DNA from: a virus
Direction: 5' to 3' (one strand)
Virus genome (UHGV): UHGV-1558314
Length of the DNA: 64,000 nt
Positions 21,270 through 59,240 of this stretch are shown piece by piece. A model generated the notes under the pieces. It had not been told where the DNA came from and searched no databases. It saw only the letters and a list, made by a program, of their open reading frames with translations. The stretch's first letter is position 1, and each line of letters begins with the position of its first letter. Made by a program: the position numbers and the translations under genes.

Positions 21270-23222
21270 CTACTCTGCTTTTGTTGCTTGCATCAGTTCA
21301 GCAAAGCTTACAGTGTAAGCATCTTCACCAACAGTCACATATGCTGCATCAACATTGGAGTCATTGCCTGTGTATGTAACCAAGGTGCCTGCAGGAATTT
21401 CTACACCGTCAATTGTTCGCATCGAATTGACAAGCTTATATGTCTTGTTGTCTTCGAAGTTCTCATTGACATATGCGGCAGCAATCATTGTTGAACGCTT
21501 ACGAGATGCAGACTCATTGACAAAGCTTGCGCCAACAAGTTCTGACAGCTTCTTCTTTGTTGCTGCAGAACACTTGTCATATGCAATGTCAATTGCAAGG
21601 TCTACATCGCCAAGTTCCTTTGCAATGAGTTCATCAATCTGAGACAGCTTCTTGTCATCTTTGACAGCGACAAAATTCATTGCAAACTTGCGAGCGTTGT
21701 CTGACAATGATTCATCAATGTTCCACTGTTTCATCAATGTCTGCTTCAGTACCTTGTCAAGTTCCGACCAGTCCTTATCTGCAAGAGTAGTTGCATCAAA
21801 GTCTTCATTGCTGAACTGCTTCAGCACTTTGACTTTGTCATCATGTGACAATGCTGACCACTTGTTTGCAGCGTCTTCAGCAGATTCAAGCAGAGGCTTG
21901 ATTGCATCTTTGAGTTCTTGCGGCCAAGTTTCAGGCGCTTTGAGCAGCATCTCAGATGAGTTGTACTTAAGCATGTCGGTCATGATTGCAAGCTTAACAT
22001 TGTTAGCTTTCTCCTCAGGTGACAGAGCTTTGAACTTTTCAGCCCAGTCTTCAGATTCAGTCACGATTGATACTGGCTTTGCAAAACCAGCGACAAAGAC
22101 AAGCTTATACATGATGTTCGTCATGAATGAACAAACTGCATCAATATCAGACTGAGTTGCTGCAGATTGAGCATCACGAATGTTAAGCAATGCTTGACGA
22201 AGAGACATAATGCCTACAACAGGGTCAGACCATGTCAATACAACTGAACTATCGATTGTGATGCCCTTGTCAAATCGCATATTTTCTGCAATGCGGTCAG
22301 CAAGTTCAGGCAGTTCAGTGTAGTACTGCTCAAGTGCTGCATGTGTAGCAGGAATAGAAACTTTTGCAGCATCAAATGGGTTATTGATGTGCATAACATG
22401 TGCAGTTTGAATTGACTGCATCAGCATCGACACTACTGCAGATTCTATTGCAACATCATCTGCAGCAGCTTCATCAAGATTTGCAATTTTTAGCAATGCC
22501 TTTTTGTCTGCATCTGACAATCGCAGCCAAATGTATTCCCATTGACTGTTTGCATCATAGCCACGGTCAGTAGCAAACTTGGTGAGTTCTGCAGATTTCT
22601 TTGCTGCGTCATCGTCATCAAGCCAATCCAAGAATGCTTTCAGTTTGTCGTCAAATGCTTCATTGACAAATGACGCCATCGCATTTTGCAACAAATATTG
22701 ATGGTCTCGTACTGGTGACTCAACAATTTCAAAGCCTTCAAGAGACTTTGGCGAGTCAGTTGCTGAACCAGCTTCAAGACACTTCTTTGATGCATTGTCA
22801 ATGACAAACCACATCTTTTGTGCTTTGAGTGCAATGTAAGTCTTGTCTTTTGATTGCTGAACAGTCATGTTGTCAAGAGCCAATGCACTGATTGGCAAAT
22901 TCTTGACTGCTGACTTGTCAAGTGCTTCATTGACTGCTACATTGTCATCACTCATTAACTGAGTATTTGCAGCAAATGTTGCAGAATCAATGCTAAGCTC
23001 TTTGCCATCGGGCATAGCGAACTTAACTGCATCTGCAACATCAAGCACTTGCACCATGGTGCCTGCTTCGACTTTGTCGTCACCAACAGCGAACTCAGTT
23101 ACAACCTGATATGCTTTGTTAGCTTCAACAGTCTCAACAGACTCCATAATGAACTTTGCTGTGCTGCAAGAGATTTTGTGCTTTTTCATGTTCATGTATG
23201 AATTTGAGTGTTTGTTGTTCAT
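21270..23222 (-). CDS. Acidic 650-aa protein with several xVNE sites; candidate scaffold/internal head protein
   Basis: ASFVNEAFDD, ASFVNESASR, AAYVNENFED, VAVNEALDK. Confidence 0.75.
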   Translation of the reverse strand: MNNKHSNSYMNMKKHKISCSTAKFIMESVETVEANKAYQVVTEFAVGDDKVEAGTMVQVLDVADAVKFAMPDGKELSIDSATFAANTQLMSDDNVAVNEALDKSAVKNLPISALALDNMTVQQSKDKTYIALKAQKMWFVIDNASKKCLEAGSATDSPKSLEGFEIVESPVRDHQYLLQNAMASFVNEAFDDKLKAFLDWLDDDDAAKKSAELTKFATDRGYDANSQWEYIWLRLSDADKKALLKIANLDEAAADDVAIESAVVSMLMQSIQTAHVMHINNPFDAAKVSIPATHAALEQYYTELPELADRIAENMRFDKGITIDSSVVLTWSDPVVGIMSLRQALLNIRDAQSAATQSDIDAVCSFMTNIMYKLVFVAGFAKPVSIVTESEDWAEKFKALSPEEKANNVKLAIMTDMLKYNSSEMLLKAPETWPQELKDAIKPLLESAEDAANKWSALSHDDKVKVLKQFSNEDFDATTLADKDWSELDKVLKQTLMKQWNIDESLSDNARKFAMNFVAVKDDKKLSQIDELIAKELGDVDLAIDIAYDKCSAATKKKLSELVGASFVNESASRKRSTMIAAAYVNENFEDNKTYKLVNSMRTIDGVEIPAGTLVTYTGNDSNVDAAYVTVGEDAYTVSFAELMQATKAE

Positions 23223-23268: not shown

Positions 23269-23298
23269 CAATGCTCAGACTGTAAAGTCTGAGCATTG
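23269..23298 (-). terminator. Hairpin (12-bp stem)
   Basis: caatgctcagac tgtaaa gtctgagcattg. Confidence 0.55.
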
Positions 23299-23474: not shown

Positions 23475-24494
23475 CTATTGCTTATGCCAGCCATATGATG
23501 CCTGACCAGCATCATACACTTCTACAAAACCATGGTCGTACATAAAATCTTCATTACGAGTGCCCTTGCCCCCATTAGTACCAAGAATACGGTCTGCACC
23601 ATGCATAAGCAGCATATTATTTGTGATATGTTGCTTTGTCAGCATATTGAACCAATGTTTGCTATATGACAAGCCAAGACCATCAAAGCCCAGCTTTGTG
23701 TACACGCCACCATCAAACTTGCTCAAATCACAATACGACAACACAGATTCAGGGTCATATGTCTTGATAAAGTGCTTGAATATGCGTTCGGCGCCACCTA
23801 CGACTTTTGTTGCTGCACAAAGACGCAGTAGTTCATACTGATATCGCTTATTGTATCGTGGACGACCAAATGTCATAAGCTGATGTATGACATAGCCGCC
23901 AAGCAATTCAAGTGGATGGCCTTCAATCAACGCAAGATTGATAAAATTGCCTGAGCACTTGCCTTGCAAATGATGTTCAATCAAAAATTGATTTGCAGTA
24001 TACTTGTCAATTTCAACAACTTTAAGCTTGCGAGCATATACAATCTTTGATTTGTCTACGATTTGATGCTTGATGTGATTGATAACTTTCTTGGCGTCAT
24101 CCCAATCCCACACATGAATGCAATGAAAGCCTGCAGCTTTTGCAATGTCTGTTTTCTTTGCATGAATATCACAAGGCAAATGCGAATCTTTTGCAGCATG
24201 CATAAATAGATGCTCAAATGAATGCGTGCTATTATGTGAAAATGTGGGATTGATGTTGATGACGATGTTGTCATGTCTAAAATCGAAGACTTCATCACCA
24301 ATAACAAAGTTGCGCTCAAAATCTATACCGACATGTTTGAGTAATACTTGATGCCACACATCTTTATAGGCTGATTCAAGATTGCTTAGCTCATCACAGT
24401 TTGCAATATTTTTGTAACGTTGAATAGCAGCATCAAAGTCAAGATTGACTTCAGCGTAGTCTGCATTTTTATCGTAGTGAAATTTTGAGCTCAT
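23475..24494 (-). CDS. Homing-endonuclease-like protein, family paralog 1 (Vsr/DUF559-like nuclease motif)
   Basis: IVININPTFSHNSTHSF ... GFHCIHVWDWDD and C-terminal VEVYDAGQ shared with paralogs; ATG at 24492-24494. Confidence 0.75.
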   Translation of the reverse strand: MSSKFHYDKNADYAEVNLDFDAAIQRYKNIANCDELSNLESAYKDVWHQVLLKHVGIDFERNFVIGDEVFDFRHDNIVININPTFSHNSTHSFEHLFMHAAKDSHLPCDIHAKKTDIAKAAGFHCIHVWDWDDAKKVINHIKHQIVDKSKIVYARKLKVVEIDKYTANQFLIEHHLQGKCSGNFINLALIEGHPLELLGGYVIHQLMTFGRPRYNKRYQYELLRLCAATKVVGGAERIFKHFIKTYDPESVLSYCDLSKFDGGVYTKLGFDGLGLSYSKHWFNMLTKQHITNNMLLMHGADRILGTNGGKGTRNEDFMYDHGFVEVYDAGQASYGWHKQ

Positions 24495-24515
24495 GTGTAT
24501 AATTTGTATGAGATT

Positions 24516-24544
24516 ATTGTACAACATGCAAATGCATGTTGCAT
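24516..24544 (-). promoter_or_regulatory. Sigma70-like promoter (ATGCAA-N17-TACAAT)
   Basis: Plus attgtacaac at 24516-24525, ttgcat at 24539-24544. Confidence 0.5.
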
Positions 24545-24598
24545 TTGATGCAAAGTACTGCGTACACAACATAAAGTACAAGTTTGCTTTTGACAGAC

Positions 24599-25621
24599 TT
24601 ACTTTGTATTGCTACGCGTCATTGTTAAATGACCGCAATCATACACATCAACTTCTGTTTTGCCAAGCATGCATGTATGACAATTTATTTTGAAATCTAC
24701 TGCAGTGTAGTCAGGATAGTTTAGCGGAGATTCTTTTGACAAATCAATTTCAATTGTGTCAGTAGTTTTAAGTTGTTCAGTGCCTGCAATGATATCTGCA
24801 ATGAGATTGATAACATCTTCTTGTGAATCCCAGTCAAACACAGTTATGCAACGATAGCCTGCATCAAGCGCAAGTTTTGTTTTGTTGTAATGGTATTGCG
24901 CATCAAGTGGCTCATTTTTGTCAGACAATTTTGTTGCATATCGAAACCCAAGCGTGCTGTTATGCGATACGGTAGGATTGATTTCTACAAGCAATTTATG
25001 TGTGCCATCAATATCATATGACAAATCATATGAATAACGTTGAATTCTAACTGCGTCAAGCTGCATGTCAATGTGTAAATGACGCAATATTATTGCATGC
25101 CAATGCTTGTTGATGCCCGATATTATATTTGCAGCTTCCATGCATTTTGGATGCATTACAAAATACGGCACGCCAAAGCGTTCTTGTATTGTTTTGTATG
25201 CTTTTGCATTAGAATCTTTACCATAAATGCTGCCATAACGCTTAAGCTTTGTAGCAATCAACTTGTCTATGTCACCCATAGCATTGCCAAAGCGCTCAAT
25301 CTTATGCTGTTTAATGGCATCTTTGTCGCCAAACATATGACCATATCGAGACATCTTTGTTGCTTTGACTGCATTGATGTTGCAACCTGCACCATATCGA
25401 GCATGCATAGTTTGCATGCGTTTAGCAATGTGCTCTTGTGATTGCTTAATTTGTTCGGTGCCAAATTTGCGCAAATTATTGATACGCTTAGTAACATCTT
25501 GTTTAATGACTGAATGCGTGGTTGTTCGCTTGCCAAGTCTTACACATTCTGTAGTTTTGAGCAATGTATCTCGTTCAAACTCAATTTGTGCAATTCGTGC
25601 AACAATTTCTTTAGATGTCAT
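24599..25621 (-). CDS. Homing-endonuclease-like protein, paralog 2 (tandem K/R-Y/F-G repeats + Vsr-like nuclease motif)
   Basis: Repeats ...MSRYGHMFGD...IERFGNAMGD...LKRYGSIYGKD...; LLVEINPTVSHNSTLGF ... GYRCITVFDWD ... VDVYDCGH; ATG at 25619-25621. Confidence 0.75.
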   Translation of the reverse strand: MTSKEIVARIAQIEFERDTLLKTTECVRLGKRTTTHSVIKQDVTKRINNLRKFGTEQIKQSQEHIAKRMQTMHARYGAGCNINAVKATKMSRYGHMFGDKDAIKQHKIERFGNAMGDIDKLIATKLKRYGSIYGKDSNAKAYKTIQERFGVPYFVMHPKCMEAANIISGINKHWHAIILRHLHIDMQLDAVRIQRYSYDLSYDIDGTHKLLVEINPTVSHNSTLGFRYATKLSDKNEPLDAQYHYNKTKLALDAGYRCITVFDWDSQEDVINLIADIIAGTEQLKTTDTIEIDLSKESPLNYPDYTAVDFKINCHTCMLGKTEVDVYDCGHLTMTRSNTK

Positions 25622-25700: not shown

Positions 25701-25737
25701 AAAAAAGAACCGCTTGCAATCTAATTGCAAGCGGTTC
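25701..25737 (-). terminator. Rho-independent terminator (14-bp stem + U tract on minus strand)
   Basis: aaaaaa gaaccgcttgcaat cta attgcaagcggttc. Confidence 0.7.
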
Positions 25738-25966
25738 AATGAATACGTTTGTCAGAAACTGTCAATGGTGCAATCGCTTGAAGAGTTAACTGAACAACTT
25801 GTTGATGCGATTGCTGCATTGGTGACTACCAAGCAGCCCATTGAACATTGGATTCGACATCAACGTCTTTGTGGTTGTTGTTGAACTCCCCAAGCCAGCA
25901 AGTATCATTTAGCAAGTTTCCAAACTTAACGTACTTGTCGTTCCCCGGCTTGGGTGGTGCAGGTTG

Positions 25967-27682
25967 TCAAATCCAGCCGTAGTCGCTGTGGATAGCGAAG
26001 GTGAGGTAAGCCAACTCGGGATACATACCCGTCTCCGCGAGAGCGTAATCCGACTCAATCAGCAACTTTGGCGCTGCTGTTCCTTCGGCTGTTAATTCCA
26101 CACTTGATGCAAGGTCATATGGCATGAATACACATCCCTGGTTGACATTCTCTACGTCAACACCGTCAGCAGTCTTGTTCGTACGAAGAACGAGAACAGT
26201 GTTGTCGTTCAGCGGCTGCTTAGGATTGCAATAGATTTTAATGCCAGCAAGGTCACCTGCGTAATACAGGTTTTTGTTGTCCTGTACCAGCGTATTGTCA
26301 AGAGCTGCAACAAAGTTTTTCTGAGCCTTAATTGCAACCAAGGCAATCGTATTGACCACAGCAGCATCACCAGCACCGAAACGCGACAGGTTGCCAATGA
26401 TTGCCGAAGCAGCCAGGATACGCGTTGCGATACGAGCCTGACGGGTAATCTGGTTCTCAGCCGAGCTGTTCGATTCAGCGTTCGGAACCATGCCGAATTC
26501 AGCCGTACGGTCTACACCCATCTTGTCGACAAATGCAGGAGCTTGGAATTCCGAGAATGCCTTGGCAGTCGAACCAGCGTAGCCAATGTACAAGTTCAGG
26601 TTGTAGCCCTGAGCAGCCAACAGCTGAGCATGTGTCGTAACACCAAGTGCACGCATGCGCTTCAGACCATTGTCATTGATTGACTGCGTGATTTCATTCT
26701 GCATTGCATTCTTGATGATTGCAACTGCATCCAAACCGCGAGCACGGAGGTCCTTAACCTGGCGACGAGTCAGAGCGCCCCAAGTCTGGTACGTCTTAAC
26801 TTCGATAGCCTTTGAGAAGGTGCGGAGCTCCAGCATGTTCGGGTTGCCAGCCTCAGCCTCAGAACGAGACATTGGGTTGCCGTCAAGGTCATCCATTGCA
26901 GCGAAGCCGTGGATGTGTTCGTCACCAGCCGAAACCAGGTCGAACATAACCTCAGTCATACCAGTCAGCAAGTCAGTTACAGCACCTGCAGCGTCAACCG
27001 AGTAGATTTTCGATGCAGCCATTGCAACATCAGCCAACGACTTGTCAGGAGCAACAGTCATTGCGCCACCTGCGCCTACAGTGTACACGCCCTCATTGCG
27101 AACTACGAGGTAGCCTGCAACACGCGATACCTGTACAAACGTTACTTTGGCAGCAAGCTCACCAGCAGCTGAACCGCCGATGTACAGAACTTGACCCTTC
27201 TTGAGGCCACGAACCATTGTCTGCGAAGCAACATTGTACAGTTCCTTCCACTTGATGAGGAAGTAGCGAGGACCCTTGGCAACATTCAGCTTGCCGCCAC
27301 CATACACGTAGTCTACATAGTCCAGCTGAACCAGCGGGCTGTAAACAGGAATGGTCGGGAGCAGGTCGAACAGAATCGTGTTGGCTGCGATGTTCATGTT
27401 CAGAGCCAGAACATTGGCAGCTACATCGATTGAACCACGCTTACGCGACGGGTCATGGAACTGTGCTTGCGTGCCTGGGTCAGCAGGGAAAGCGACCGGA
27501 CCTACGCCATTGAGATTCTGCGAATACGTCGACTCAAACGACTCGTTCATATACTGAACGTTCTGAGCGATTGATGCGAGCAGATACTTCTTAGCGGGCG
27601 AGAGCTTGGAGTCAAACGACTCATCAAGAACAGGGCCCCACTTTTTCAGCAATGCATCAATCTGTGTACGTTTTGCGTTCAT
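25967..27682 (-). CDS. Putative major capsid protein (571 aa) with N-terminal propeptide cleavage motif
   Basis: Markedly GC-richer codon usage than neighbours; N-terminal ...NVQYMNE/SFEST matches the recurrent xNE motif; late-type promoter upstream; family assignment not verified. Confidence 0.7.
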   Translation of the reverse strand: MNAKRTQIDALLKKWGPVLDESFDSKLSPAKKYLLASIAQNVQYMNESFESTYSQNLNGVGPVAFPADPGTQAQFHDPSRKRGSIDVAANVLALNMNIAANTILFDLLPTIPVYSPLVQLDYVDYVYGGGKLNVAKGPRYFLIKWKELYNVASQTMVRGLKKGQVLYIGGSAAGELAAKVTFVQVSRVAGYLVVRNEGVYTVGAGGAMTVAPDKSLADVAMAASKIYSVDAAGAVTDLLTGMTEVMFDLVSAGDEHIHGFAAMDDLDGNPMSRSEAEAGNPNMLELRTFSKAIEVKTYQTWGALTRRQVKDLRARGLDAVAIIKNAMQNEITQSINDNGLKRMRALGVTTHAQLLAAQGYNLNLYIGYAGSTAKAFSEFQAPAFVDKMGVDRTAEFGMVPNAESNSSAENQITRQARIATRILAASAIIGNLSRFGAGDAAVVNTIALVAIKAQKNFVAALDNTLVQDNKNLYYAGDLAGIKIYCNPKQPLNDNTVLVLRTNKTADGVDVENVNQGCVFMPYDLASSVELTAEGTAAPKLLIESDYALAETGMYPELAYLTFAIHSDYGWI

Positions 27683-27770
27683 GATTGAATTTGTTTGTTA
27701 TTGAAAGTGAAACATATATTTCTGTATAATATGTATAGAACTACTGATATTGATTGAATTGTGAAAATGG

Positions 27771-29060
27771 TCATTTTTCAATCTTTTTGAGCAATGCATG
27801 ACCGCAATCATAGACTTCGACGAAGCCTGAAGCAATCAATGAGTCAACATCTATAGAAGACGTTCGTATAATATGTTCGTGTGTCTTGATATTGTATAGA
27901 TGACACTGAACCCATGTTTTGACGACTTCATAATTTGGATACAATCGAGGGTCTTCTTTTGACAAATCAAGTTCTATGACATCATCAGTTTTGAGCTGCT
28001 CAGTTTTGTTTATGACATCTCTAATGTGCAGCAACATATCATATCTACAATCCCAGTCAAATATTGTTATACATCGATAGCCATTGCGTGCTGCAACATC
28101 TGTTTTGAATTTGTGAGCATACGCAGGTTTGGCGTCATTATCAACAGAATGCCCAGTTATGTAACCAAAGCCCTTTGTTGCATTGTGTGTAACAGTTGGA
28201 TTGATTTCAATTACAACAGCATCTTTTCGCAAATCATATAACAAGTTCTCAATAGGATGCTCAGTAACAAAATCAAGATTGCAAGAATGTTTCAAATCCC
28301 ATTGCCACGACATATTGATGTTTGATGTCAACCTTGCAGATGCTTGCGGCAATTGCAATGCATGTTCTACACCATAGCGTTCACGTAATGTTGCATGAGC
28401 CCTTTGCATATTTTGCATTGCGGGACCCCAATGCTCAAATTTTGTAGCATTTATCTTTGCAATTTTGTCTGGTAGCTTATTTGTACTATCTACACCATAT
28501 TTAATAAGACAACTGATGCGAATATTGTATTGTCGTTTTATTCGAGAATGTGACGTAGCACATCTACTAAATCGTTCAAATGGTGTTGATGCAATCAATG
28601 CATCTCGTTCTGACTCAAGAGCTTTGACATGTTCAAGCACTTCTGCTGGTACATTATCATAGTCAATCACATATTGCTGACGTGGTTGCGTTACATGAGT
28701 TTTGCCGTGTGTCTTAAGCTTATTGATTTGTATGCTATACTTTCTGCGTATATGTGGATGTCTTGATGCATCAGATTGCGCAATTTCATGCTCTCGTTGC
28801 TCTTCAAGTTTAGCTATTTGCTCAACAATAGCTGGTTCAATGTCTGGTTTGTCTGATATGACTATGTTTTTAAGCTCATCAAGACGCTTGTTGAGATATT
28901 TGACACGTCTTGTATATGTTATCTTTGCAACTTGATGGTTTGTATGATGCTTGCCTACTTGCTGTTCTGGTTGATTCAGCGTGTCATCAAGGCGTTGCTT
29001 AGCGAGCTCAAATTCATTATCAAGCCATGCTTTATGCGCATCAAATTCATCTTGTGTCAT
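27771..29060 (-). CDS. Homing-endonuclease-like protein, paralog 3
   Basis: VVIEINPTVTHNATKGFGY ... GYRCITIFDWDCRYD ... VEVYDCGHALL. Confidence 0.75.
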   Translation of the reverse strand: MTQDEFDAHKAWLDNEFELAKQRLDDTLNQPEQQVGKHHTNHQVAKITYTRRVKYLNKRLDELKNIVISDKPDIEPAIVEQIAKLEEQREHEIAQSDASRHPHIRRKYSIQINKLKTHGKTHVTQPRQQYVIDYDNVPAEVLEHVKALESERDALIASTPFERFSRCATSHSRIKRQYNIRISCLIKYGVDSTNKLPDKIAKINATKFEHWGPAMQNMQRAHATLRERYGVEHALQLPQASARLTSNINMSWQWDLKHSCNLDFVTEHPIENLLYDLRKDAVVIEINPTVTHNATKGFGYITGHSVDNDAKPAYAHKFKTDVAARNGYRCITIFDWDCRYDMLLHIRDVINKTEQLKTDDVIELDLSKEDPRLYPNYEVVKTWVQCHLYNIKTHEHIIRTSSIDVDSLIASGFVEVYDCGHALLKKIEK

Positions 29061-29125
29061 ATGTGTGTGTAGTGCTTGTTAATCATGTTATATATCATAT
29101 GACAAATTACTACTTTGCATATAAC

Positions 29126-29159
29126 AAAAAAGAAGCCAAGTCGTTTTGACTTGGCTTCA
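29126..29159 (-). terminator. Rho-independent terminator
   Basis: aaaaaa gaagccaagt cgttttg acttggcttc. Confidence 0.6.
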
Positions 29160-29189
29160 AATTATTCTAACTTATTGATAGTTAATAAG

Positions 29190-29765
29190 TTAAAATTGAG
29201 AACCTACGACACGTGGCACTGCAAGTTCGCTGGTAAGAACGGCTTGACAAGTGTAAATGTCGTCACTATTCTTGTCATGTGAATCGACTGCGCTGATAGG
29301 ACCCTTAGGGAATCCATTCTTGTACGACGTTACTCTCCAGGCTGTTCCAACCTGATTATTTTCAACGAGAATCCAAGAACCCACATAGTTTTTCTTGAGA
29401 CCCATGGCTCCCGTGAGAGGATTCCTGCGTTTCGCATTCCAACTTTGGAATGCATTGTAAATCACAGGGTCATTGGTGTCTGGTCCATGCAAGTTCAGAT
29501 TCATTGTGATAGTCAGGTTGTGAATGTTGCTGACTGTCAATGCTGAGAACTGACGAGACTGATTTTGCGCAACTTTTTGTGAAACCACATCAGGCGCATT
29601 GTCAAGTGTGCCCAAACCTGAAATTGACTGAATTTGCTCATCAATTGTATCTGGAATCACAACGCCTGCAGGTGGCATAAGTGTGAGCTCGAACAATGAA
29701 CTGAACACGGGTTCAGCATATTCGGCAGTCACTTCGCTGTTTTTGATATGCGGTAACTTCGGCAT
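29190..29765 (-). CDS. Hypothetical protein (191 aa); possible tail tube protein
   Basis: Size and position near sheath-like gene; weak FELTLMPPAGVV resemblance to gp19-type tubes; tentative. Confidence 0.55.
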   Translation of the reverse strand: MPKLPHIKNSEVTAEYAEPVFSSLFELTLMPPAGVVIPDTIDEQIQSISGLGTLDNAPDVVSQKVAQNQSRQFSALTVSNIHNLTITMNLNLHGPDTNDPVIYNAFQSWNAKRRNPLTGAMGLKKNYVGSWILVENNQVGTAWRVTSYKNGFPKGPISAVDSHDKNSDDIYTCQAVLTSELAVPRVVGSQF

Positions 29766-29806
29766 GATTGTAATGTGTTATTAAATTGTTCTTGTTTTGT
29801 TATGCG

Positions 29807-30556
29807 TCATCGTACAGTGAATGACTTATCATCATCTTCTGTAGTAGTCGGGTCATCAATTACATCGTGGCCAATGCCTGACTCTGGTTCTGGTTCTGGT
29901 TCCGGTTCCGGTTCCGGTTCTGGTTCTGGTTCCGGTTCTGGTTCCGGTTCTGGTTCCGGTTCTGGTTCCGGTTCTGGTTCCGGTTCTGGTTCAGGTTCTG
30001 GTTCCGGTTCCGGTTCTGGTTCTGGTTCCGGTTCTGGTTCCGGCTTGGGCTCTGGCTTGGGCTCTGGCTTGGGCTTCGATGAATAATCAAACATCTTATG
30101 AATCCATTTGCACCACCATTTGCGACATACATGTGTGCCATCATGATAATACGCTTGCAGCTCCATTGGAATTGCATGATATGCTTTGTCATGTGACATA
30201 CCTTTGAATACTCGCAAGTACACATAGCACAAGCAATATGCAATGTAGTACATAAGCGGTGATGCAAGCAGCCACCACCAGCTAAGCACATTGCATGCTG
30301 CAAGCACAATAAGTACAAGCAACGTCGCAAGTGTTACGAAGATGAATTGCTTTGCATGCACAGCTTCATGCTTCAATGTCTCAGAATATCTACTAAGTGT
30401 GTCATCATATGACTTATCACTTCTTATGAAGCACATTGCACACAACGACATTGCATAATAATGTGAAAATGGAATGTATGGCTGGTCGATGACAAGCATT
30501 GGTCCAGCAAACCACAGTCGCCACTGAGATTTCTTTGGCAGTGTTGCAGTTTTCAT
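29807..30556 (-). CDS. HExxH-motif membrane protein with C-terminal (KPEP)/(PE)n repeat tract
   Basis: [10 protein letters not shown] followed by hydrophobic helices; C-terminal about 60-aa PE repeat encoded by the hexanucleotide SSR. Confidence 0.7.
29884..30074. repeat. Hexanucleotide microsatellite (GGTTCY)n about 30 units plus (GGCTTGGGCTCT)n
   Basis: Direct reading of ggttctggttccggttcc...; encodes (PE)n on minus strand. Confidence 0.9.
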
Positions 30557-30619
30557 AAAATGATGTTTATTGTTGATGATGAAGACTGAAGAGCTTTGGC
30601 TCTTCAGTCTATCAATTTG

Positions 30620-33457
30620 CTACTCTGCAGATGCGCCTTGCAGTGACAATGTTGTACGATGTACACCAATTCGAATGCCTTGAGCATTGATAATTTCAGT
30701 GTCAAGTACAATGAATCCGCGAGCAATCGTTTCATCATCATTGTTGCTGCTATCACAGACATTCGTGTACGAAACTGCGCCACCGGCTGCAACGATGCCA
30801 TCCATGAAATTGTCTGCTTTAGTCTTAACCTGCAAACGAACATTTGCAGTGTTTCGCTTGTACTGGGCAGACTTCAAGTATGGCTCGATGTTGTCAGCGA
30901 CGTAGATGAGCAACTCGAGATTTTCGATGTAGCTGAATGCGCTGGTGTAAGCTACTTGTGCAGAACGAGATGTCAGCATTGTGATGACGCCTTGGTCTGA
31001 ACGAGCAAGCATATTCCAACCTGCAGGTTCAAGGTCATCCATATCAGACCCTTCACCTTGTGAGACAATCATGTCAATGTCGGTTACGCCAACACCAGAC
31101 AGTGGCCACTCATCACCAGCAACGACGTCAAAGACATGCTTGCCTGCTTCTATATGCTTTCTCATGAAGACATTCGACAAGATACCTGTTGCAGGAATCG
31201 TCATATCATCAATGCCATCATTGTAGCGAACATTGGCTACATATGTGATGAACGGTGCGCCATCAGTTTGACCTGCGAAGCTGAACAACTTGCTGTATGG
31301 TTTATCGGTGTTACCACCTGCAGCACAGTACTTAGACTCAATTGGGTCACCTGCATTGTCCTTGAAGTACGGGTCAGTTGAGCGGAACAAGTCATACTTG
31401 GTTGGCAGAGCAGAGAATGCGATTGCACGTTTTGAATCATTGCAAATCTTTGCAAACTCGTACTTTTGATTTGCTGCAATGTATGTCTTGAATGGGTCAA
31501 CTACGTAACGCCATTGACATTGATTGTGGTCCATCAAGCTACGATAAACGCCGCCTGAAATGAGAGCTTGCAGTACTTCTGTCTGACGTGCAGATGTGCC
31601 ATCAACAAATTGAGTTGCACGAAGAGCTACGCCATGCAGATATGCGCCCTTGAAGAACTTAACTTGGTCAACAAGCTTCGTCAATGACCAAACAGACGCC
31701 TGCGAGGCGTACTTCATCATTGAGCCATCTGCAAGTTCAAATTCGCCTTCAGCACCCGCAGCTTTGTATGCCAATGCACCAGTGAATTGATATTCAATCA
31801 ACACTTTGTTTTCTGCAAATGCATCGTAGACATTCTTCTTCTCAAGTGGCGACAAATCAGCTTCAGTGATTGTGATTGGCATGCCACCATACTTGAGCGG
31901 CTTATCCAACGGCAGACCATTAGAATCATATTCAACAAGGTCACCACCATATGAAATTGTCTCACCTGCAGCTCTTGCTTTACGAGCTTTCGTTGATGAA
32001 GTTTCTACATCTGCAGACTCTTCGCCGCCAATTGTGACTGTTGAGCCTTGCGGATAGATGAAGTTGCCCTTTGCATCCTGAGGGAATGCAACCTTTGCAC
32101 CTGATTCGTCAATGTACATTGGAATGCCGTCTTCCTTGCCAATGACAGGAACTGCGCGATATTCAGCTACAACTGCGCGACTTGTGCAGCGTACTGGTGA
32201 ACCATCAGCGCCAATGAAGATGTCGCCAAGTGAAATTGGCAACACTGGTGCAACAAATGAAGTCTTTGAAGCTTCACCTGGCTGCACAAATGGAACCATC
32301 ACATTAACAAACTCAGATGACACGAAGTCCTTGAGCTGTTCTTTTGTGATTGCGACATCTGTTGCTGTTGGCGTGCAGTCAATCTTTTCAGGATTGATGT
32401 CAGTTGACGGACGAGCCATGCCAAGATATTGATGTGTAGCATCATCAGCAAACAATGGACCCGCAGCTTCATCTACAGAAATGTAGTTCGAACCAAAGAT
32501 GTCCACTGCACGTTGGAAACGAGCGTCTTCAATGTCATTTGAATTGTAGAACTCGTCAACCTTGTCAGGGTCAATCTTACACATGATACCTGTCGTGTCT
32601 GACACTGCATTCACAGCAGTTTCCAATGACAGTTTGTTGCCATTGATATCAAGCAAGTCAGGAATCAATGAGCCAGATACACGACCCATGTAGCCAGATG
32701 CTGCAAGCTTTGACAGTGCCTCAGGACCATACATGCCATCAACTTGTGCACGGATGCCATCCTTTGTGAAGTACTTGCCATATACAGTCGAACCTGCAAG
32801 TGATTCATAGTTCGTCAGTTTTTCAGAGAAAAACCAAACATCAACCATATAGTCTGACACAAGGTCATTGCAGTTCACGCCGGGTACATACATTGATGGG
32901 AAGCGGTCTTGAACTGACTTGATGTCATAATCATAGCCAGTCAATGTTGTCGGCGTAATGAAGATTGTTGCAGACTTGTTTGTAAGTGTTGAGAAGTTGA
33001 GCAGCTGTACGGGGTCAGCGCCAACAGCATTGAGCAGATTCAATGGCTCAGCTTTCCAGAAGTTTGATGTATCATAGACATCCTTAAATGGAACGTCTAC
33101 AGGTGAGCCATCTTCTCCTGAGCTGTTTGCAGCAAAAGTCACTCGTGACAACACATCGCTATCATTGAATGAGCGCAAGTTCAACACAAGAATTGGGCTT
33201 GTTGCAAGCATTTGCTCTGCAATGAGACCAGCGAAACAGCCGGCACGCTCCAAACGCTTGTCACGTTGACCGAAAATTTCATGCAGCTGGTCTGCATCTT
33301 CAACAAGCACGGCGCGATTGACCGGACCGTTCTTCCACTGGCCTGGCAGCAATCGAAGTGTTTGAGCGGGCAGTGAGTCAAGGTGACTTGCGTCAATGAA
33401 CAGACGATATGTCCCGACTGACTTGAACCGTTCAAATAAAGAAGTGTTATTTGCCAT
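30620..33457 (-). CDS. Putative tail sheath protein (946 aa)
   Basis: N-terminal GQWKNGPVNRAVLVEDADQLHEIFG resembles sheath motif; ATG at 33455-33457 (MANNTSLF); late-type promoter; tentative. Confidence 0.65.
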   Translation of the reverse strand: MANNTSLFERFKSVGTYRLFIDASHLDSLPAQTLRLLPGQWKNGPVNRAVLVEDADQLHEIFGQRDKRLERAGCFAGLIAEQMLATSPILVLNLRSFNDSDVLSRVTFAANSSGEDGSPVDVPFKDVYDTSNFWKAEPLNLLNAVGADPVQLLNFSTLTNKSATIFITPTTLTGYDYDIKSVQDRFPSMYVPGVNCNDLVSDYMVDVWFFSEKLTNYESLAGSTVYGKYFTKDGIRAQVDGMYGPEALSKLAASGYMGRVSGSLIPDLLDINGNKLSLETAVNAVSDTTGIMCKIDPDKVDEFYNSNDIEDARFQRAVDIFGSNYISVDEAAGPLFADDATHQYLGMARPSTDINPEKIDCTPTATDVAITKEQLKDFVSSEFVNVMVPFVQPGEASKTSFVAPVLPISLGDIFIGADGSPVRCTSRAVVAEYRAVPVIGKEDGIPMYIDESGAKVAFPQDAKGNFIYPQGSTVTIGGEESADVETSSTKARKARAAGETISYGGDLVEYDSNGLPLDKPLKYGGMPITITEADLSPLEKKNVYDAFAENKVLIEYQFTGALAYKAAGAEGEFELADGSMMKYASQASVWSLTKLVDQVKFFKGAYLHGVALRATQFVDGTSARQTEVLQALISGGVYRSLMDHNQCQWRYVVDPFKTYIAANQKYEFAKICNDSKRAIAFSALPTKYDLFRSTDPYFKDNAGDPIESKYCAAGGNTDKPYSKLFSFAGQTDGAPFITYVANVRYNDGIDDMTIPATGILSNVFMRKHIEAGKHVFDVVAGDEWPLSGVGVTDIDMIVSQGEGSDMDDLEPAGWNMLARSDQGVITMLTSRSAQVAYTSAFSYIENLELLIYVADNIEPYLKSAQYKRNTANVRLQVKTKADNFMDGIVAAGGAVSYTNVCDSSNNDDETIARGFIVLDTEIINAQGIRIGVHRTTLSLQGASAE

Positions 33458-33560
33458 GTTCGTTATCGTATTTGTAAATTGTGAAATGTTGCTTTGTTTG
33501 ATTATAACTTGATATATGTATGTATATGATGACATCAAACATGTTGTTGACCAAAATCAA

Positions 33561-46480: not shown

Positions 46481-47736
46481 TAACTGTCATACGACCAGTG
46501 ACCACAGTCATACACTGGCACAAATCCAGTGTCAAGCATTTCTTGCTCATTAAAGTCATCATCAAGCAAGTGTTCACCCGATTTTGTATTAACCCAGTGC
46601 TTCTTAATTGTGCATTCATCAACCGCAAAGGGATTAAGTACATTGTCAGTACAGTCAATGAACGCATCATTCAAATGCGCTTCAATGATATGAAGCACAA
46701 TTTCTTGGTCGTGCCAATCAAATATCATGAGTGGCGTGTAGCCACATGCAATTGCAAGTTGTTGCTTCCACCAATGATAGTTTGGCTATTTTGCTTCTGC
46801 AGCATTTCGTTTAAAGCCATACACGCTATTATGAGTATGCGTCGGGTTAACGTCAATTAGCAGATTGCCATAATACAGGTCATATGACGTTATGCCAACA
46901 CCATGTTCAAACTCAAAATGCACACCAAGATGTTCTTCAATGTATGATTGCCACCATCTGTTTGGCGCAGATATGATTTGCCCATTTGCTTGCATACATT
47001 TATTTGTCATGCAAAACCATGGCACACCGTAACGTTCCATACAGGTTTTTGAAATTGCAGCAAGCCATTCATCTTTGTCTCTATGCGGCCATGCATAACC
47101 ATAACGCAGACGGCATGTTTGTTGAGCTTTAGCAACGATTGGCGCTAAACGTTCACCGTATATTTCACGTTTAGTTGCGATGGCTTTGCGTGGATTAGTC
47201 CATCCAGCATCACCCCATCGCTCAAGCTTCGTTTGCTGAGATTTTTCAACAATCAGTTCAAGATTCTCACCATATTTTTGACGACGAGTTTGCATTGCTG
47301 CAACATAATCTGTAATGCATCTATGGCCATACAAACGTTCTTTTGTCGCACATTGAACATCTACTGGACCTTGTGGATAGCCATAGCGTTCCATATTCGT
47401 TTGACGAATATGTGCTTTATCGCCATATGAACTGCCGTAGCGTGCAACTTTAGTGGCAATTGTTTGCTTGATGTTGCCTGCTTTAGAACCATAACGAGCT
47501 TCTTTAGTTGCTACGCATTTTTGTTTGACTTCTGCTCTGTTCCAATTATGCTCAACGCCATGTTTACGAAGATGGCCAATTTTCATGTTGTACACGTTTT
47601 TGATATGACCATGAGATGTCTTACGTGGTGCATATCGTACAAATGGTGTTTCTGCAAGCAACTTATCTCGTTCAGCTTCAAGCTCTTTAATTCGAGCTTC
47701 AAGAGCTTCACCAGTCAAAGGCTCTACATGTTTCAT
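46480..47736 (-). pseudogene. Homing-endonuclease-like paralog 4 interrupted by a single in-frame TAG (46786-46788)
   Basis: ORFs 46786..47736 and 46480..46728 are in the same frame; intervening codons read *PNYHWWKQQLAIACGYTPLMIFDW and align with intact paralogs. Confidence 0.7.
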
Positions 47737-54959: not shown

Positions 54960-54988
54960 TATTGTACAACATGTGTTAACTTTTTGCA
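54960..54988 (-). promoter_or_regulatory. Sigma70-like promoter (ATGCAA-N17-TACAAT)
   Basis: Plus attgtacaac at 54960-54969, ttgcat at 54983-54988. Confidence 0.5.
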
Positions 54989-56175
54989 TGACCACAATCA
55001 TACACCGCAACATAGCCAGCATCAATCATCTCTTGCTCATCTTGTCCGCAATCTTCAATATGTTCTTTTGTCTTCAAATGACACCAGTGTTTGCGAATTG
55101 TTGACTTGTCATCTGACAATTGCGGATTGAGTGCGAAGTCAGTTGAGTCTACTGGTTCACCTGCAAGATGCTTTCTAATGACATCAATGACAACATCAAA
55201 TGGCATCCAGTCAAACACTGTAATGCAAGTGTAGCTGTGTTTGATAGCAAGTTGTGTTTTGTTAAAATGGTTGTCATATGGTCGTTGCCAATTATGATTT
55301 GCATTGAACACAATATTTGCAAAACTACGCGTGCTATTATGAGAAATAGTTGGGTTAAGTTCAATTAGCAACTTATGCGATTTGCAAACAATGTCATATG
55401 ACAATGACGTGTTCTCAAATGTAAATTCTTGCTCAAAATGCACATCAAGGTTATCAAATAGCATGTTAAGCCTTGTGCATATTTTTGTATTGTGTGCAGA
55501 CTTTGCTTTAGATTTTGCTCTGCATTGAGGCAATTGGCATGGCCACACTACACCATGACGTGACAATGTTGTTGCACGAATTGCGTCAAGATTCGTTGAT
55601 GGATTGCCATATCGAGCTATTCGAGTTTGCCTTGCTTTGTCTATATTGCCTGGGCCTGCATTGCCCCATCGCTGCAACTTTGTTTGTCGAGCTTGTTCAT
55701 GATTGCTGTAATATGGGTCTCCATATCGTTCAAGCTTTGTTTGCTTTAACTTACTCATGTCGCCAAGCCCATTGCCATACTTAGCACGCTTTGTTTCTAT
55801 GCCTTTCTTTAGATTGCCTCGTTTGTTGCCATATTTTGCAATGTTGTGTGCATTACGTTTTTCAATGTCACCAAACCCATTGCCATATCGTGCAAATTTT
55901 GTTGCTTGCGCTTTTTCAAAATTGACTGCTAATGTGCCATAACGAGCATACTTAGTTGCTTTGCCCTTATCAACGACTTCTTTACGATGCAATGCAGCTT
56001 CAACACCATATTTTCGCAAATTTGTAATTTTTGCATTGTATCGTCGTCTAATTGTTGCATGAGTGTTGTTACGAGACCCTGTTCTGACATATTCAGTTGC
56101 AGCAAGTTCAGCATCACGTAACTGCTCAAGTTCTGCAATTCGTTGTTCAAGTTCAGCGCCTACAAGTGGTTTCAT
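54976..56175 (-). CDS. Homing-endonuclease-like protein, paralog 5, between the two polymerase ORFs
   Basis: Seven about 17-aa repeats with (K/R)YG core; LLIELNPTISHNSTRSF ... SYTCITVFDW ... VAVYDCGH. Confidence 0.75.
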   Translation of the reverse strand: MKPLVGAELEQRIAELEQLRDAELAATEYVRTGSRNNTHATIRRRYNAKITNLRKYGVEAALHRKEVVDKGKATKYARYGTLAVNFEKAQATKFARYGNGFGDIEKRNAHNIAKYGNKRGNLKKGIETKRAKYGNGLGDMSKLKQTKLERYGDPYYSNHEQARQTKLQRWGNAGPGNIDKARQTRIARYGNPSTNLDAIRATTLSRHGVVWPCQLPQCRAKSKAKSAHNTKICTRLNMLFDNLDVHFEQEFTFENTSLSYDIVCKSHKLLIELNPTISHNSTRSFANIVFNANHNWQRPYDNHFNKTQLAIKHSYTCITVFDWMPFDVVIDVIRKHLAGEPVDSTDFALNPQLSDDKSTIRKHWCHLKTKEHIEDCGQDEQEMIDAGYVAVYDCGHAKS

Positions 56176-59031: not shown

Positions 59032-59240
59032 GTGCCATTACGCTTACGACGTTCAATTTCTGCCTCAACGTCATCAATGTCATGATTTATTTGAGCAAGA
59101 CGAATGTCATTGTCATACTCTTTAAGTAGCTGTTCAAACAAATCTTCTTTGAACTGCTTCAAACGTTCATTTGAAAATGCTCTTACGTTCATATCAAAGT
59201 CTACATTCTTTTTCAAGTTTCTTGTCATTGATGACAACAT
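59019..59240 (-). CDS. Hypothetical small protein (73 aa)
   Basis: ORF track only. Confidence 0.4.
   Translation of the reverse strand: MLSSMTRNLKKNVDFDMNVRAFSNERLKQFKEDLFEQLLKEYDNDIRLAQINHDIDDVEAEIERRKRNGTWNS

What the first reader, a model, noticed from the sequence alone, without database searches (positions are those of the whole stretch)
25967..27682. Putative capsid gene is a compositional outlier flanked by homing-endonuclease-like genes
This ORF is visibly GC-richer than its surroundings, which fits a highly expressed structural gene or foreign origin. It has homing-endonuclease-like paralogs 2 and 1 downstream and paralog 3 upstream, suggesting the capsid gene is a hotspot for selfish-element insertion. 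A 230-nt ORF-poor 3' region (25740-25966) with a long-range inverted repeat separates it from the terminator.
Basis: seen in the sequence. Interest (0 to 1): 0.4.

Follow-up and report, generated by a model that had tools for sequence, protein, structure and literature searches.

The report
Codon-optimised capsid gene ringed by homing endonucleases
This is the major capsid gene of a large human-gut phage, GC-rich because its codons and amino acids are tuned for very high expression, and it sits between mobile homing-endonuclease genes that are swapped between near-identical phages; this is a clear example of known phage biology, not a new kind of system.

Summary
Observation confirmed. ORF 25967-27682 (-) is the only gp23-type major capsid gene in the window: Pfam Gp23 scores above its cut-off, and the AlphaFold model matches T4 gp23* at E 4e-16. 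It is the strongest compositional outlier. GC is 0.515 against 0.409 ± 0.024 for windows of the same size, and GC3 is 0.547 against 0.366.

The excess comes from avoiding A-ending codons (A3 0.13 against 0.23-0.35) while T3 stays unchanged, plus an Ala/Gly-rich protein. The capsid gene is the GC-richest, and nearly always the GC3-richest, gene in every related locus examined. Capsid and portal identities between lineages agree. I therefore favour selection on a very highly expressed gene over foreign origin.

The 3' region is a lineage-specific, strongly folding insertion of about 195 nt whose role is unknown. Overall this is a known kind of arrangement (a "HEG island") involving an uncharacterised endonuclease subfamily.

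The parts
25967..27682 (-). Major capsid protein gene (gp23 / HK97-fold type), 571 aa. It is the GC and GC3 outlier.
   Evidence: Pfam PF07068 E 4e-11, above the cut-off. tblastn to annotated capsid proteins. AlphaFold model pTM 0.74, matching T4 gp23* at E 4e-16. GC and codon data. It is the only gp23-like gene in the window.
25772..25966 (-). Insertion of about 195 nt between the capsid stop codon and the pre-terminator segment, found only in this lineage. It is predicted to fold strongly as RNA, and its function is unknown. The boundaries are approximate.
   Evidence: Absent in L002, L006 and L008, where the stop codon is followed within about 35 nt by the terminator. RNA fold z -6.4. Inverted repeats. 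Exact-match scans find it only in the L001 contig. No Rfam family reaches threshold.
25829..25966 (-). 46 sense codons in frame with the capsid gene directly after its TGA (QPAPPKPG...WAAW), ending at TAG 25826-25828. Speculative read-through extension.
   Evidence: Translation. Codon index 0.48, reached by 4.7% of out-of-frame windows. Allele differences are 2 synonymous and 1 Asp/Asn. No homologue in two protein libraries. An extension of this length is not unusual among the window's genes.
25707..25737 (-). Intrinsic terminator of the capsid transcript (14-bp perfect stem, 3-nt loop, T-run).
   Evidence: Conserved in all close alleles.
24599..25621 (-). Endonuclease paralogue B, 340 aa from ATG 25621 (the mechanical ORF extends to TTG 25702). 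Helical DUF7487-type repeats, a Vsr-like nuclease core and a short C-terminal beta domain.
23475..24581 (-). Endonuclease paralogue A, 365-368 aa. A Vsr-like core followed by a domain whose homologues in relatives match Pfam Mom (GNAT-like).
   Evidence: PHROG 3339 'homing endonuclease' E 7e-42 and PHROG 559 E 5e-35, both over the C-terminal part. Core shared with B and C. Pfam Mom PF25680 hits in homologues P0013 and the PTm1 endonuclease; for paralogue A itself only a weak PHROG 'Mom-like' hit, E 0.005.
23269..23298 (-). Terminator closing the B+A endonuclease block, ahead of the 650-aa gene.
27771..29060 (-). Endonuclease paralogue C, 429 aa, directly upstream of the capsid gene. An N-terminal coiled-coil-like region, then repeats and the Vsr-like core.
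   Evidence: Replaced by a 29%-identical allele in L001 and by a chimeric 612-aa allele in L019.
27683..27850 (-). Block conserved in all three haplotypes: the last ~27 codons of the upstream endonuclease plus the 88-nt capsid leader. It presumably carries the capsid gene's expression signals, and it is the right-hand edge of the cassette.
   Evidence: Alignment of window, L001 and L019. Identity profile. There is no terminator between paralogue C and the capsid gene.
29132..29158 (-). Terminator after the tail-tube gene. It marks the left-hand edge of the upstream endonuclease cassette.
54976..56175 (-). Endonuclease paralogue D, 399 aa, directly after the N-terminal fragment of a split family-B DNA polymerase.
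46492..47736 (-). Endonuclease paralogue E. It is full length but has one in-frame stop inside the nuclease core, so it is a probable pseudogene.

Best explanation
The ORF is the single gp23-type major capsid gene of a gut phage of about 175-180 kb. The lack of Shine-Dalgarno sequences and the hosts of related phages suggest a Bacteroidota host.

Its GC excess has two causes. About 55% comes from third codon positions and about 45% from an Ala/Gly/Val-rich protein. At third positions the gene specifically avoids A-ending codons and uses C- or G-ending ones, or GCT, GTT and CGT. This is the signature of selection for efficient translation of the most abundantly made virion protein. It is not a trace of import from a GC-richer donor.

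The neighbouring genes are free-standing homing endonucleases of the Vsr-like (EDxHD/Hef) superfamily. Inferred mechanism: during mixed infection the enzyme cuts a conserved site in or next to the capsid gene of a phage that lacks that allele. Recombinational repair then copies the endonuclease cassette, together with adjoining capsid-flank sequence, into the cut genome.

The intergenic slots just after the tube terminator and just after the capsid terminator tolerate such cassettes, so alleles invade, replace each other, recombine into chimeras, decay and get deleted. The AT-rich, poorly adapted endonuclease genes make the capsid gene's composition stand out even more.

Shown here: capsid identity, the codon pattern and its conservation, the nuclease fold, and cassette turnover. 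Inferred: expression level, match to host-preferred codons, endonuclease activity, and the cleavage target.
For: Capsid identity.

Composition:
- GC and GC3 are the highest of 57 ORFs, z about 4.5 for gene-sized windows.
- Codon table: GCT 0.56 against 0.26, CGT 0.71 against 0.33, CTG 0.44 against 0.14, CAG 0.87 against 0.35, TCG 0.59 against 0.08; no AGA, CGA, ATA or CTA.
- A3 is 0.13 against 0.23-0.35, while T3 stays at about 0.33.
- GC3 is raised along the whole gene.
- On a capsid-referenced codon index, four of the five genes ranking next are virion genes (a head-fibre-like protein, the protease/scaffold, the tail sheath and a likely capsid-associated gene).

Conservation of the bias:
- The capsid gene is the GC-richest and, except in the most distant relatives (MA9V-2, PAU, PTm1, L014), the GC3-richest and A3-poorest gene in every related locus, across locus GC from 0.24 to 0.42.
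- Synonymous sites between window and L002 are close to saturated: 208 of 427 identical residues use a different codon.
- The sister lineage prefers a different codon set (TCT, ACT, GAA).
- Capsid and portal identities are congruent across three sub-clades.
- Literature: phage structural genes carry host-preferred codons (PMC2266997).

Endonucleases:
- Five paralogues in the window, with invariant D226, P243, T244, H247, N248, H271 and W291.
- hhalign 96%, E 3e-9, to the PTm1 'Hef-like homing endonuclease'.
- Hef-type enzymes belong to the EDxHD family (PMC3239194).

Turnover:
- Sharp drops to about 40% identity confined to the endonuclease ORFs inside a 95-100% identical backbone.
- Three haplotypes around capsid genes that are 96.8-100% identical at nucleotide level.
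- Defined cassette edges.
- The downstream site is occupied in L006, L007, L008, L011, L012 and L013, truncated in L002 and emptied in L010.
- Paralogue E is a pseudogene.
- MA9V-2 and PTm1 also carry an endonuclease next to their capsid gene.

Precedent: T4 segD lies between genes 23 and 24 (PMC2988022), and endonucleases bracketing essential genes have been described as 'HEG islands' (PMC10448857).
Against: - The host is unknown, so the match of the capsid's preferred codons to host-preferred codons or tRNAs was not tested.
- The strong TCG and ACG preference is unusual, and it differs from the sister lineage.
- The capsid gene is a discrete outlier rather than the top of a smooth gradient. 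The next genes score 0.57 on the index against 0.73 for the capsid gene, which is a self-referenced value.
- No cleavage activity, target site or homing event has been demonstrated for any member of this subfamily.
- The glutamate of the EDxHD motif has no clear counterpart, and the position of the last aspartate is uncertain.
- The only endonuclease-free allele found (L010) looks like a deletion derivative, not a naive site.
Confidence: 0.72

Rival explanations
1. Foreign origin. The capsid gene is cargo of a 'HEG island', brought in recently by the flanking endonucleases from a GC-richer phage, and it has not yet drifted to the composition of the resident genome.
For: Endonucleases sit on both sides, which is the architecture described for HEG islands (PMC10448857). 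The capsid gene is a discrete compositional outlier. In this lineage a tail sheath-tube block and paralogue C sit between the protease and capsid genes, unlike in L002, L006 and MA9V-2, so the region has been rearranged.
Against: - Capsid and portal divergence are congruent in every pair of lineages.
- The same gene is the GC-richest gene of its neighbourhood, and usually the GC3-richest, in relatives spanning locus GC 0.24-0.42.
- T3 is unchanged, and GCT, GTT and CGT are preferred, which a plain GC shift does not predict.
- Capsid nucleotide identity between sub-clades is only about 72%, not anomalously high.
- Synonymous sites are near saturation, yet the bias persists.
Confidence: 0.08
2. 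The flanking genes are not selfish homing elements. They are domesticated nucleases or DNA-binding proteins retained for a phage function, such as exclusion of competitors, host DNA degradation or regulation of late genes. Their allelic diversity would then reflect diversifying selection.
For: Invariant residues are kept across distant paralogues. Four intact copies are maintained in one 64-kb window. Each has its own promoter-like motif and terminator. The conserved 3' end of the upstream gene overlaps the capsid leader block. Marker exclusion by T4 endonucleases is itself a competitive function (PMC2988022).
Against: Presence, absence, truncation and pseudogene states and whole-cassette replacement between near-identical phages are the classic life cycle of homing genes. 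Their codon usage is the least adapted in the window. They lie next to the capsid and DNA polymerase genes, as known homing endonucleases do.
Confidence: 0.12
3. The 3' 'ORF-poor' region is coding. Leaky read-through of the capsid TGA (context TGA-C, followed by a stable stem-loop) adds a 46-residue tail, with a Pro-rich linker and an aromatic-rich module, to a fraction of the capsid subunits. This would be comparable to Q-beta A1 or T7 10B.
For: - 46 in-frame sense codons follow the stop.
- The peptide opens with QPAPPKPG, which looks like a linker.
- Frame-0 codon index is 0.48, against 0.34-0.36 for the other two sense frames, and only 4.7% of out-of-frame windows reach it.
- GC3 is 0.54 and A3 0.17, similar to the capsid gene.
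- Among alleles there are 2 synonymous changes, 1 Asp/Asn change and no indel in the 138 nt, whereas the next 95 nt have 3 substitutions plus an indel.
- A strong structure starts about 12 nt after the stop.
Against: - An open frame of this length after a stop is not unusual here: roughly 10 of 50 genes have one as long.
- The codon index is below almost every window of the capsid gene itself (0.74 ± 0.08).
- The peptide has no homologue among 5.8 billion and 1.8 billion proteins.
- TGA and TAA alternate freely as the capsid stop in relatives that lack the insertion.
- Only three variable sites are available, and there is no covariation support for the RNA structure.
- All three stop codons are used normally in the window.
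Confidence: 0.08

Closest known systems
T4 gp23 major capsid protein (Pfam PF07068, HK97 fold), and the capsid proteins of Sphingomonas phage PAU (gp156), Chryseobacterium phage MA9V-2 and Tenacibaculum phage PTm1
   Same: Significant profile match, 33-37% identity to the jumbo-phage capsid proteins, and a predicted fold that superposes on gp23* and gp24. The gene order portal - prohead protease - capsid gene is ancestral in the relatives.
   Different: Only about 13-16% identical to T4 gp23. In this lineage a tail sheath-tube block and an endonuclease lie between the protease and capsid genes. The third-position bias is much stronger than in PAU, MA9V-2 or PTm1.
EDxHD / Vsr-like homing endonucleases: I-Bth0305I (PDB 3R3P) and the phage Hef-type free-standing endonucleases (phage U5 Hef; 'Hef-like' genes of T4-like and jumbo phages)
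   Different: - The core motif is E-I-N-P-T-x-S-H-N, not the E-F-D-G-x-x-W-H of Hef-like proteins.
- There is no clear counterpart of the first Glu, and the last Asp is uncertain.
- The DNA-binding part consists of DUF7487-type 'TKxxRYG' helical repeats, not NUMOD or zinc-finger modules.
- The family is not intron-encoded.
- No member has been tested biochemically.
Free-standing endonucleases beside capsid genes, and 'HEG islands' (T4 segD between genes 23 and 24; ICP1 and T5-like phages, Barth et al. 2023)
   Same: Endonuclease genes occupy the intergenic slots on both sides of an essential, conserved, highly expressed gene. Different endonucleases replace each other at one locus while the backbone stays nearly unchanged. 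Domain-swapped chimeras occur.
   Different: The nuclease family differs (Vsr-like, not GIY-YIG, HNH or T5orf172). All copies point the same way as the capsid gene, unlike the antisense segD. There is no sign that the bracketed capsid gene itself has moved between lineages.
Translational selection on phage structural genes (Lucks et al. 2008)
   Same: Third-position composition and codon choice of the most abundantly made structural gene deviate from the rest of the genome in a consistent direction.
   Different: Host-preferred codons could not be compared because the host is unknown. The effect is concentrated almost entirely in one gene.

Membership tests
gp23-type (HK97-fold) major capsid protein | Significant match to the Gp23 profile above the curated threshold | tested here: met
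   PF07068 at 43.3 bits against a cut-off of 24.4, covering residues 99-554. Nearly all of the 88 homologues (all but the weakest) carry PF07068.
gp23-type (HK97-fold) major capsid protein | HK97-like fold with the gp23 insertion domain | tested here: met
   Model pTM 0.74. Foldseek hits to T4 gp23* 8gmo at E 4e-16, T4 gp24 1yue at 3e-11 and HK97 at 2e-8.
gp23-type (HK97-fold) major capsid protein | It is the shell-forming (major) protein, not a vertex paralogue, and is present in virions | not testable with these tools
   It is the only gp23-like gene in the 64-kb window, and its homologues are annotated as major capsid proteins. Virion proteomics would be needed.
EDxHD / Vsr-like (Hef-type) homing endonucleases | Vsr-like variant of the PD-(D/E)xK nuclease fold | tested here: met
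EDxHD / Vsr-like (Hef-type) homing endonucleases | Conserved catalytic residues E...D...(N/H)...H...D | tested here: inconclusive
   D226, N242 and H247 are invariant or nearly so, and they align with D, D(N) and H of the PTm1 Hef-like protein and, by spacing, with D196, N208 and H213 of I-Bth0305I. No conserved Glu is found at the first position (S195 and N198 are conserved there). The counterpart of the last Asp (D288, D290 or H271) could not be assigned without a residue-level structural superposition.
EDxHD / Vsr-like (Hef-type) homing endonucleases | Sequence homology to recognised family members | tested here: met
   hhalign of the family alignment against the PTm1 'Hef-like homing endonuclease' gives probability 96%, E 2.7e-9. 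A core HMM hits the same protein at E 9e-6.
EDxHD / Vsr-like (Hef-type) homing endonucleases | Site-specific double-strand cleavage of the endonuclease-free allele, and biased inheritance (homing) | not testable with these tools
   Only indirect evidence is available: cassette presence, absence and replacement in near-identical backbones, a truncated copy and a pseudogene copy.
HEG island (endonucleases bracketing an essential gene that is mobilised as cargo) | Endonuclease genes on both sides of an essential gene | tested here: met
   Paralogue C lies upstream and paralogues B and A downstream of the capsid gene.
HEG island (endonucleases bracketing an essential gene that is mobilised as cargo) | The bracketed region is much more conserved at nucleotide level between otherwise dissimilar phages | tested here: not met
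   Capsid nucleotide identity between sub-clades is about 72%, in proportion to portal divergence. Within the species-level cluster it is 97%, against 94-96% for the flanks.
Programmed stop-codon read-through capsid extension (Q-beta A1-like) | An in-frame ORF after a leaky stop, with evidence of coding constraint and a translated product | tested here: inconclusive
   The open frame exists and shows weak coding signals. It has no homologues, and its length is not exceptional. The product cannot be tested here.

The most novel reading that the evidence does not exclude
The lineage-specific insertion of about 195 nt directly after the capsid TGA may not be an untranslated region. It could be a programmed read-through module: a weak TGA-C stop followed by a strong stem-loop would let a minority of ribosomes add a 46-residue tail, made of a Pro-rich linker and an aromatic-rich module, to the gp23-type capsid protein. 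That would be a minor surface-displayed capsid variant acquired very recently by one gut-phage lineage.
Probability: 0.08. Interest if true: 0.7.

Novelty: new member of a known kind. Interest (0 to 1): 0.3.

Why it matters
The finding mainly resolves an apparent anomaly. The sharp GC island is what a heavily translated capsid gene looks like when it sits between AT-rich selfish genes, so compositional scans should not read such islands as horizontal transfer.

It also gives three usable results:
- A functional assignment for an uncharacterised protein family. DUF7487-type repeats combined with an 'EINPTxSHN' core form a Vsr-like, Hef-related nuclease. The family is found almost only in metagenomic phages.
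- A natural series of endonuclease alleles around one conserved capsid gene: three haplotypes, chimeras, a truncation, a deletion and a pseudogene. Such a series could be used to map target sites and study competition between homing genes in human-gut phages.
- The capsid flanks are recombination hot spots. This matters when the capsid gene is used as a phylogenetic or diagnostic marker for these phages.

Tried and rejected
- Near-identity DNA search of the 6.5-kb region against GenBank phages: no match.
- Sequence search of the capsid protein and of paralogues A and B against PDB sequences: nothing meaningful.
- NCBIfam: nothing meaningful.
- Rfam on the whole window, and permissively on the 3' region: nothing except a chance GlmZ hit at 19 bits against a cut-off of 60.
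- tRNA scan of the window and of 13 loci: none, so phage tRNAs cannot be linked to the codon bias from the sequence available.
- Search for other copies of the 3' insertion in the window, in related loci and in IMG/VR: only the orthologous site.
- Covariation in the 3' structure: three substitutions, none compensatory.
- Homologues of the 46-residue read-through peptide: none in two libraries.
- Alternative genetic code (TGA recoding): rejected, because TAA, TGA and TAG all serve as stops (23, 19 and 8 genes) and the long ORFs are intact.
- The small plus-strand ORF in the 3' region (39 aa): considered, then dropped. It has no plausible promoter, and an indel in L001 hits its ATG.
- An intron or intein in the capsid gene: rejected. 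The protein is collinear with 571-aa homologues.
- A common late-promoter motif upstream of the capsid gene: none recognised.
Full report
**1. What is at the coordinates**

Its GC is 0.515. The 57 ORFs of the window average 0.406 (sd 0.028), and none is higher. Among all 1716-nt windows of the 64 kb the mean is 0.409 (sd 0.024), and the highest value outside this gene is 0.464, in the tail-sheath gene.

The two flanks are among the most AT-rich coding stretches (GC 0.38), which sharpens the contrast.

A perfect 14-bp-stem terminator lies at 25737-25707. As RNA this stretch folds much better than shuffled sequence (-97.8 kcal/mol, z -6.4).

**2. The ORF is the major capsid gene**

- Pfam Gp23 (PF07068) matches residues 99-554 at 43 bits, against a cut-off of 24.4. 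PHROG 138 'major head protein' also matches.
- tblastn finds 33-37% identity over the whole length to the annotated major capsid proteins of Chryseobacterium phage MA9V-2, Sphingomonas phage PAU (gp156) and Tenacibaculum phage PTm1. Weaker matches reach the Lak megaphages.
- Nearly all of the 88 database homologues (all but the weakest) carry the Gp23 domain.
- An AlphaFold model built on 37 sequences (pTM 0.74) matches T4 gp23* (E 4e-16), T4 gp24, the jumbo phage S6 capsid and HK97.
- It is the only gp23-like gene in the window.
- Neighbouring genes fit a virion module: T4-type portal (39112-40908), a 1316-aa prohead protease/scaffold (33612-37562), tail sheath (30620-33538) and a tube-like gene (29190-29765).
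- Related contigs come from human-gut metagenomes and are 155-181 kb long.

**3. Why the gene is GC-rich**

About 55% of the excess sits at third codon positions (GC3 0.547 against 0.366). The rest comes from an Ala-, Gly- and Val-rich protein.

The third-position shift is not a general GC shift. A3 falls to 0.13, against 0.23-0.35 in other genes, while T3 stays at about 0.33. The codon table shows the following:
- TCA, ACA, CCA, CAA, GAA and AAA give way to their G-ending partners.
- GCA gives way to GCT, and CTT/TTG to CTG.
- Two-fold pyrimidine-ending codons switch to C.
- CGT and GTT are favoured.
- AGA, CGA, ATA and CTA are absent.

The bias runs along the whole gene. On a codon index referenced to the capsid gene, four of the five genes ranking next are virion genes (a head-fibre-like protein, the protease/scaffold, the sheath and a likely capsid-associated gene), but the capsid gene stands well apart.

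The comparative evidence favours selection:
- In every related locus, with locus GC from 0.24 to 0.42, the capsid gene is the GC-richest gene of its neighbourhood. Except in the most distant relatives (MA9V-2, PAU, PTm1, L014) it is also the GC3-richest and A3-poorest.
- Between the window and the L002 lineage (74% amino-acid identity), 208 of 427 identical residues use a different codon. Synonymous sites are therefore close to saturation, yet both genes are biased.
- The sister lineage prefers a partly different codon set (TCT, ACT, GAA).
- Capsid and portal identities are congruent for all pairs of lineages: 74-76% against 56-61%, and 41-43% against 28-31%.

This pattern is what long-term selection on a very highly expressed gene predicts, as documented for phage structural genes in general (PMC2266997). 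It is not what a recent import predicts. The match to host-preferred codons could not be tested because the host is unknown. No tRNA genes occur in the window or the fetched loci.

**4. The flanking genes**

The window holds five paralogues:

| Paralogue | Coordinates (minus strand) | Note |
|---|---|---|
| A | 23475-24581 | downstream of the capsid gene |
| B | 24599-25621 | downstream; the mechanical ORF runs to 25702 and overlaps the terminator |
| C | 27771-29060 | upstream of the capsid gene |
| D | 54976-56175 | directly after the N-terminal fragment of the DNA polymerase |
| E | 46492-47736 | one in-frame stop, probable pseudogene |

They share a core of about 120 residues with invariant D226, P243, T244, H247, N248, H271 and W291 (numbering of the 367-aa ORF of paralogue B). 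The signature is E-I-N-P-T-x-S-H-N ... Y-H-x-N-K-T ... F-D-W-D.

Paralogues B, C and D carry N-terminal tandem 'TKxxRYG' helical repeats (weak Pfam DUF7487 hits). Paralogue A, and many homologues, carry a C-terminal domain that Pfam calls Mom in those homologues; for A itself only a weak PHROG 'Mom-like' hit supports this.

A profile comparison aligns the family core with the nuclease domain of the PTm1 'Hef-like homing endonuclease' (96% probability, E 3e-9). It pairs D226, E240, N242 and H247 with D, E, D and H of the canonical L-D ... E-F-D-G-x-x-W-H motif. I-Bth0305I has Asn at the same place (N208, five residues before H213), and Hef-type enzymes are assigned to its EDxHD family (PMC3239194).

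The family is thus a divergent branch of the Vsr-like homing endonucleases. The first Glu and the last Asp of the motif could not be placed, and no activity has been measured.

**5. Evidence that the capsid flanks are a homing hot spot**

Against L001 (IMG/VR contig, backbone 94-99% identical), identity collapses to about 40% exactly over paralogue C (about 29250-27850) and over the N-terminal two thirds of paralogue B (about 25640-24930). It returns abruptly on either side.

Among six phages whose capsid genes are 96.8-100% identical at nucleotide level there are three haplotypes:

| Haplotype | Loci | Upstream gene | Downstream genes |
|---|---|---|---|
| 1 | window, L017, L018 | 429 aa | 340 + 365 aa |
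| 2 | L001 | 463 aa (29% identical to haplotype 1) | 353 aa (57%) + 357 aa (95%) |
| 3 | L019, L020 | 612 aa, chimeric (92% over 230 aa) | 447 aa (32-41%) |

The cassette edges are defined. The left edge is the tube terminator plus the first few codons of the endonuclease gene. The right edge is the last ~27 codons of the upstream gene, around the shared GFVEVYDCGH motif, together with the 88-nt capsid leader.

In the two sister sub-clades the slot just after the capsid terminator holds different states:
- a full-length family member in L006, L007, L011, L012, L013 and L008;
- a 5'-truncated remnant in L002;
- nothing but a leftover promoter-like stub in L010.

More distant phages, MA9V-2 and PTm1, also carry an endonuclease next to their capsid gene.

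The endonuclease genes have the least adapted codon usage in the window. This is the familiar cycle of invasion, replacement, decay and loss. It parallels T4 segD between genes 23 and 24 (PMC2988022) and the endonuclease-bracketed essential genes of ICP1 and other phages (PMC10448857).

The 'cargo mobilisation' aspect of HEG islands is not seen here.

**6. The 3' region**

In L002, L006 and L008 the capsid stop codon is followed within about 35 nt by the terminator. The window and its 97-100% relatives have an extra ~195 nt (about 25772-25966) inserted right after the stop. The insertion is unique to this lineage and matches no Rfam family. The few substitutions give no covariation.

In frame with the capsid gene it reads 46 sense codons, QPAPPKPGNDKYVKFGNLLNDTCWLGEFNNNHKDVDVESNVQWAAW.
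- Its codon index is reached by 4.7% of out-of-frame windows, but it is below almost every window of the capsid gene itself.
- Among alleles there are two synonymous changes and one Asp/Asn change.
- The peptide has no homologue in two very large libraries.
- An open frame of this length after a stop is not unusual in this window.
- The genetic code is standard.

I treat read-through as a low-probability possibility. The default reading is an insertion scar that now forms a structured, perhaps stabilising, 3' end of the capsid mRNA.

**7. Verdict**

Both the observation and the interpretation hold, with 'highly expressed' preferred over 'foreign'. The arrangement is a well-documented kind of phage genome feature. 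What is new is the particular endonuclease subfamily and the rich allelic series around one gut-phage capsid gene. Interest is modest.

Noticed in passing
window 51370-52662 and 56184-57689 (minus strand), with 54976-56175 between them: The family-B DNA polymerase is split. The exonuclease domain and the start of the polymerase domain are in one ORF, and the rest of the polymerase domain is in another ORF about 3.5 kb away. Endonuclease paralogue D directly follows the first fragment, and a dUTPase-like gene and three small ORFs lie between the two fragments.
   Followed up: partly
window 7620-10841 (minus strand): The ribonucleotide reductase large subunit (1073 aa) has a weak intein-splicing-domain hit at residues 318-497, below the Pfam cut-off. 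This may be another selfish element in an essential gene.
   Followed up: no
window 41054-42172 (minus strand): A 372-aa ORF with a weak TnsA-like endonuclease hit and the least adapted codon usage. It lies beside the portal gene and is absent from the syntenic position in L002, so it is a candidate for a second type of mobile nuclease.
   Followed up: partly
window 27771-33538 compared with L002, L006, L013 and MA9V-2: In relatives the order is portal - protease - (small ORF) - capsid gene. In this lineage a block of about 5.8 kb (tail sheath, PE-repeat membrane protein, tube, paralogue C) sits between the protease and capsid genes, so a module has been rearranged next to the endonuclease site.
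   Followed up: partly
window 29807-30556 (minus strand), repeat about 29860-30090: A predicted membrane protein with a long Pro-Glu dipeptide repeat. Its length differs between close relatives: 249 aa here, 231 aa in L001 and 217 aa in L017.
   Followed up: no
window, upstream of 24599-25621, 7620-10841, 51370-52662, 59194-59763 and 11150-11605; also after the capsid terminator in L010-L012: A recurrent promoter-like motif, GTTGTA(C/T)AAT or TAGTATAAT, lies about 20-40 nt upstream of several start codons, including those of endonuclease cassettes. No Shine-Dalgarno sequences are visible, which fits a Bacteroidota-type host.
   Followed up: no
window 23475-24581; L005 10138-11535; P0013: Many members of this endonuclease family, including an annotated Hef-like enzyme, carry a C-terminal domain that matches Pfam Mom, the phage Mu DNA-modification family (PF25680). 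For paralogue A itself only a weak PHROG 'Mom-like' hit was found. Whether the domain binds DNA, modifies it or is inert is unknown.
   Followed up: partly
window about 22480-22730 within 21270-23222: The 650-aa DUF5856-containing gene downstream of the endonuclease block has an indel of about 200 nt relative to L001 (585 aa there). Its length also varies in relatives, from 561 to 753 aa.
   Followed up: no
window 37708-38376 (plus strand): One of the few plus-strand ORFs. It has a borderline RuvC-like hit and lies between the portal and protease genes, where L002 has no gene.
   Followed up: no
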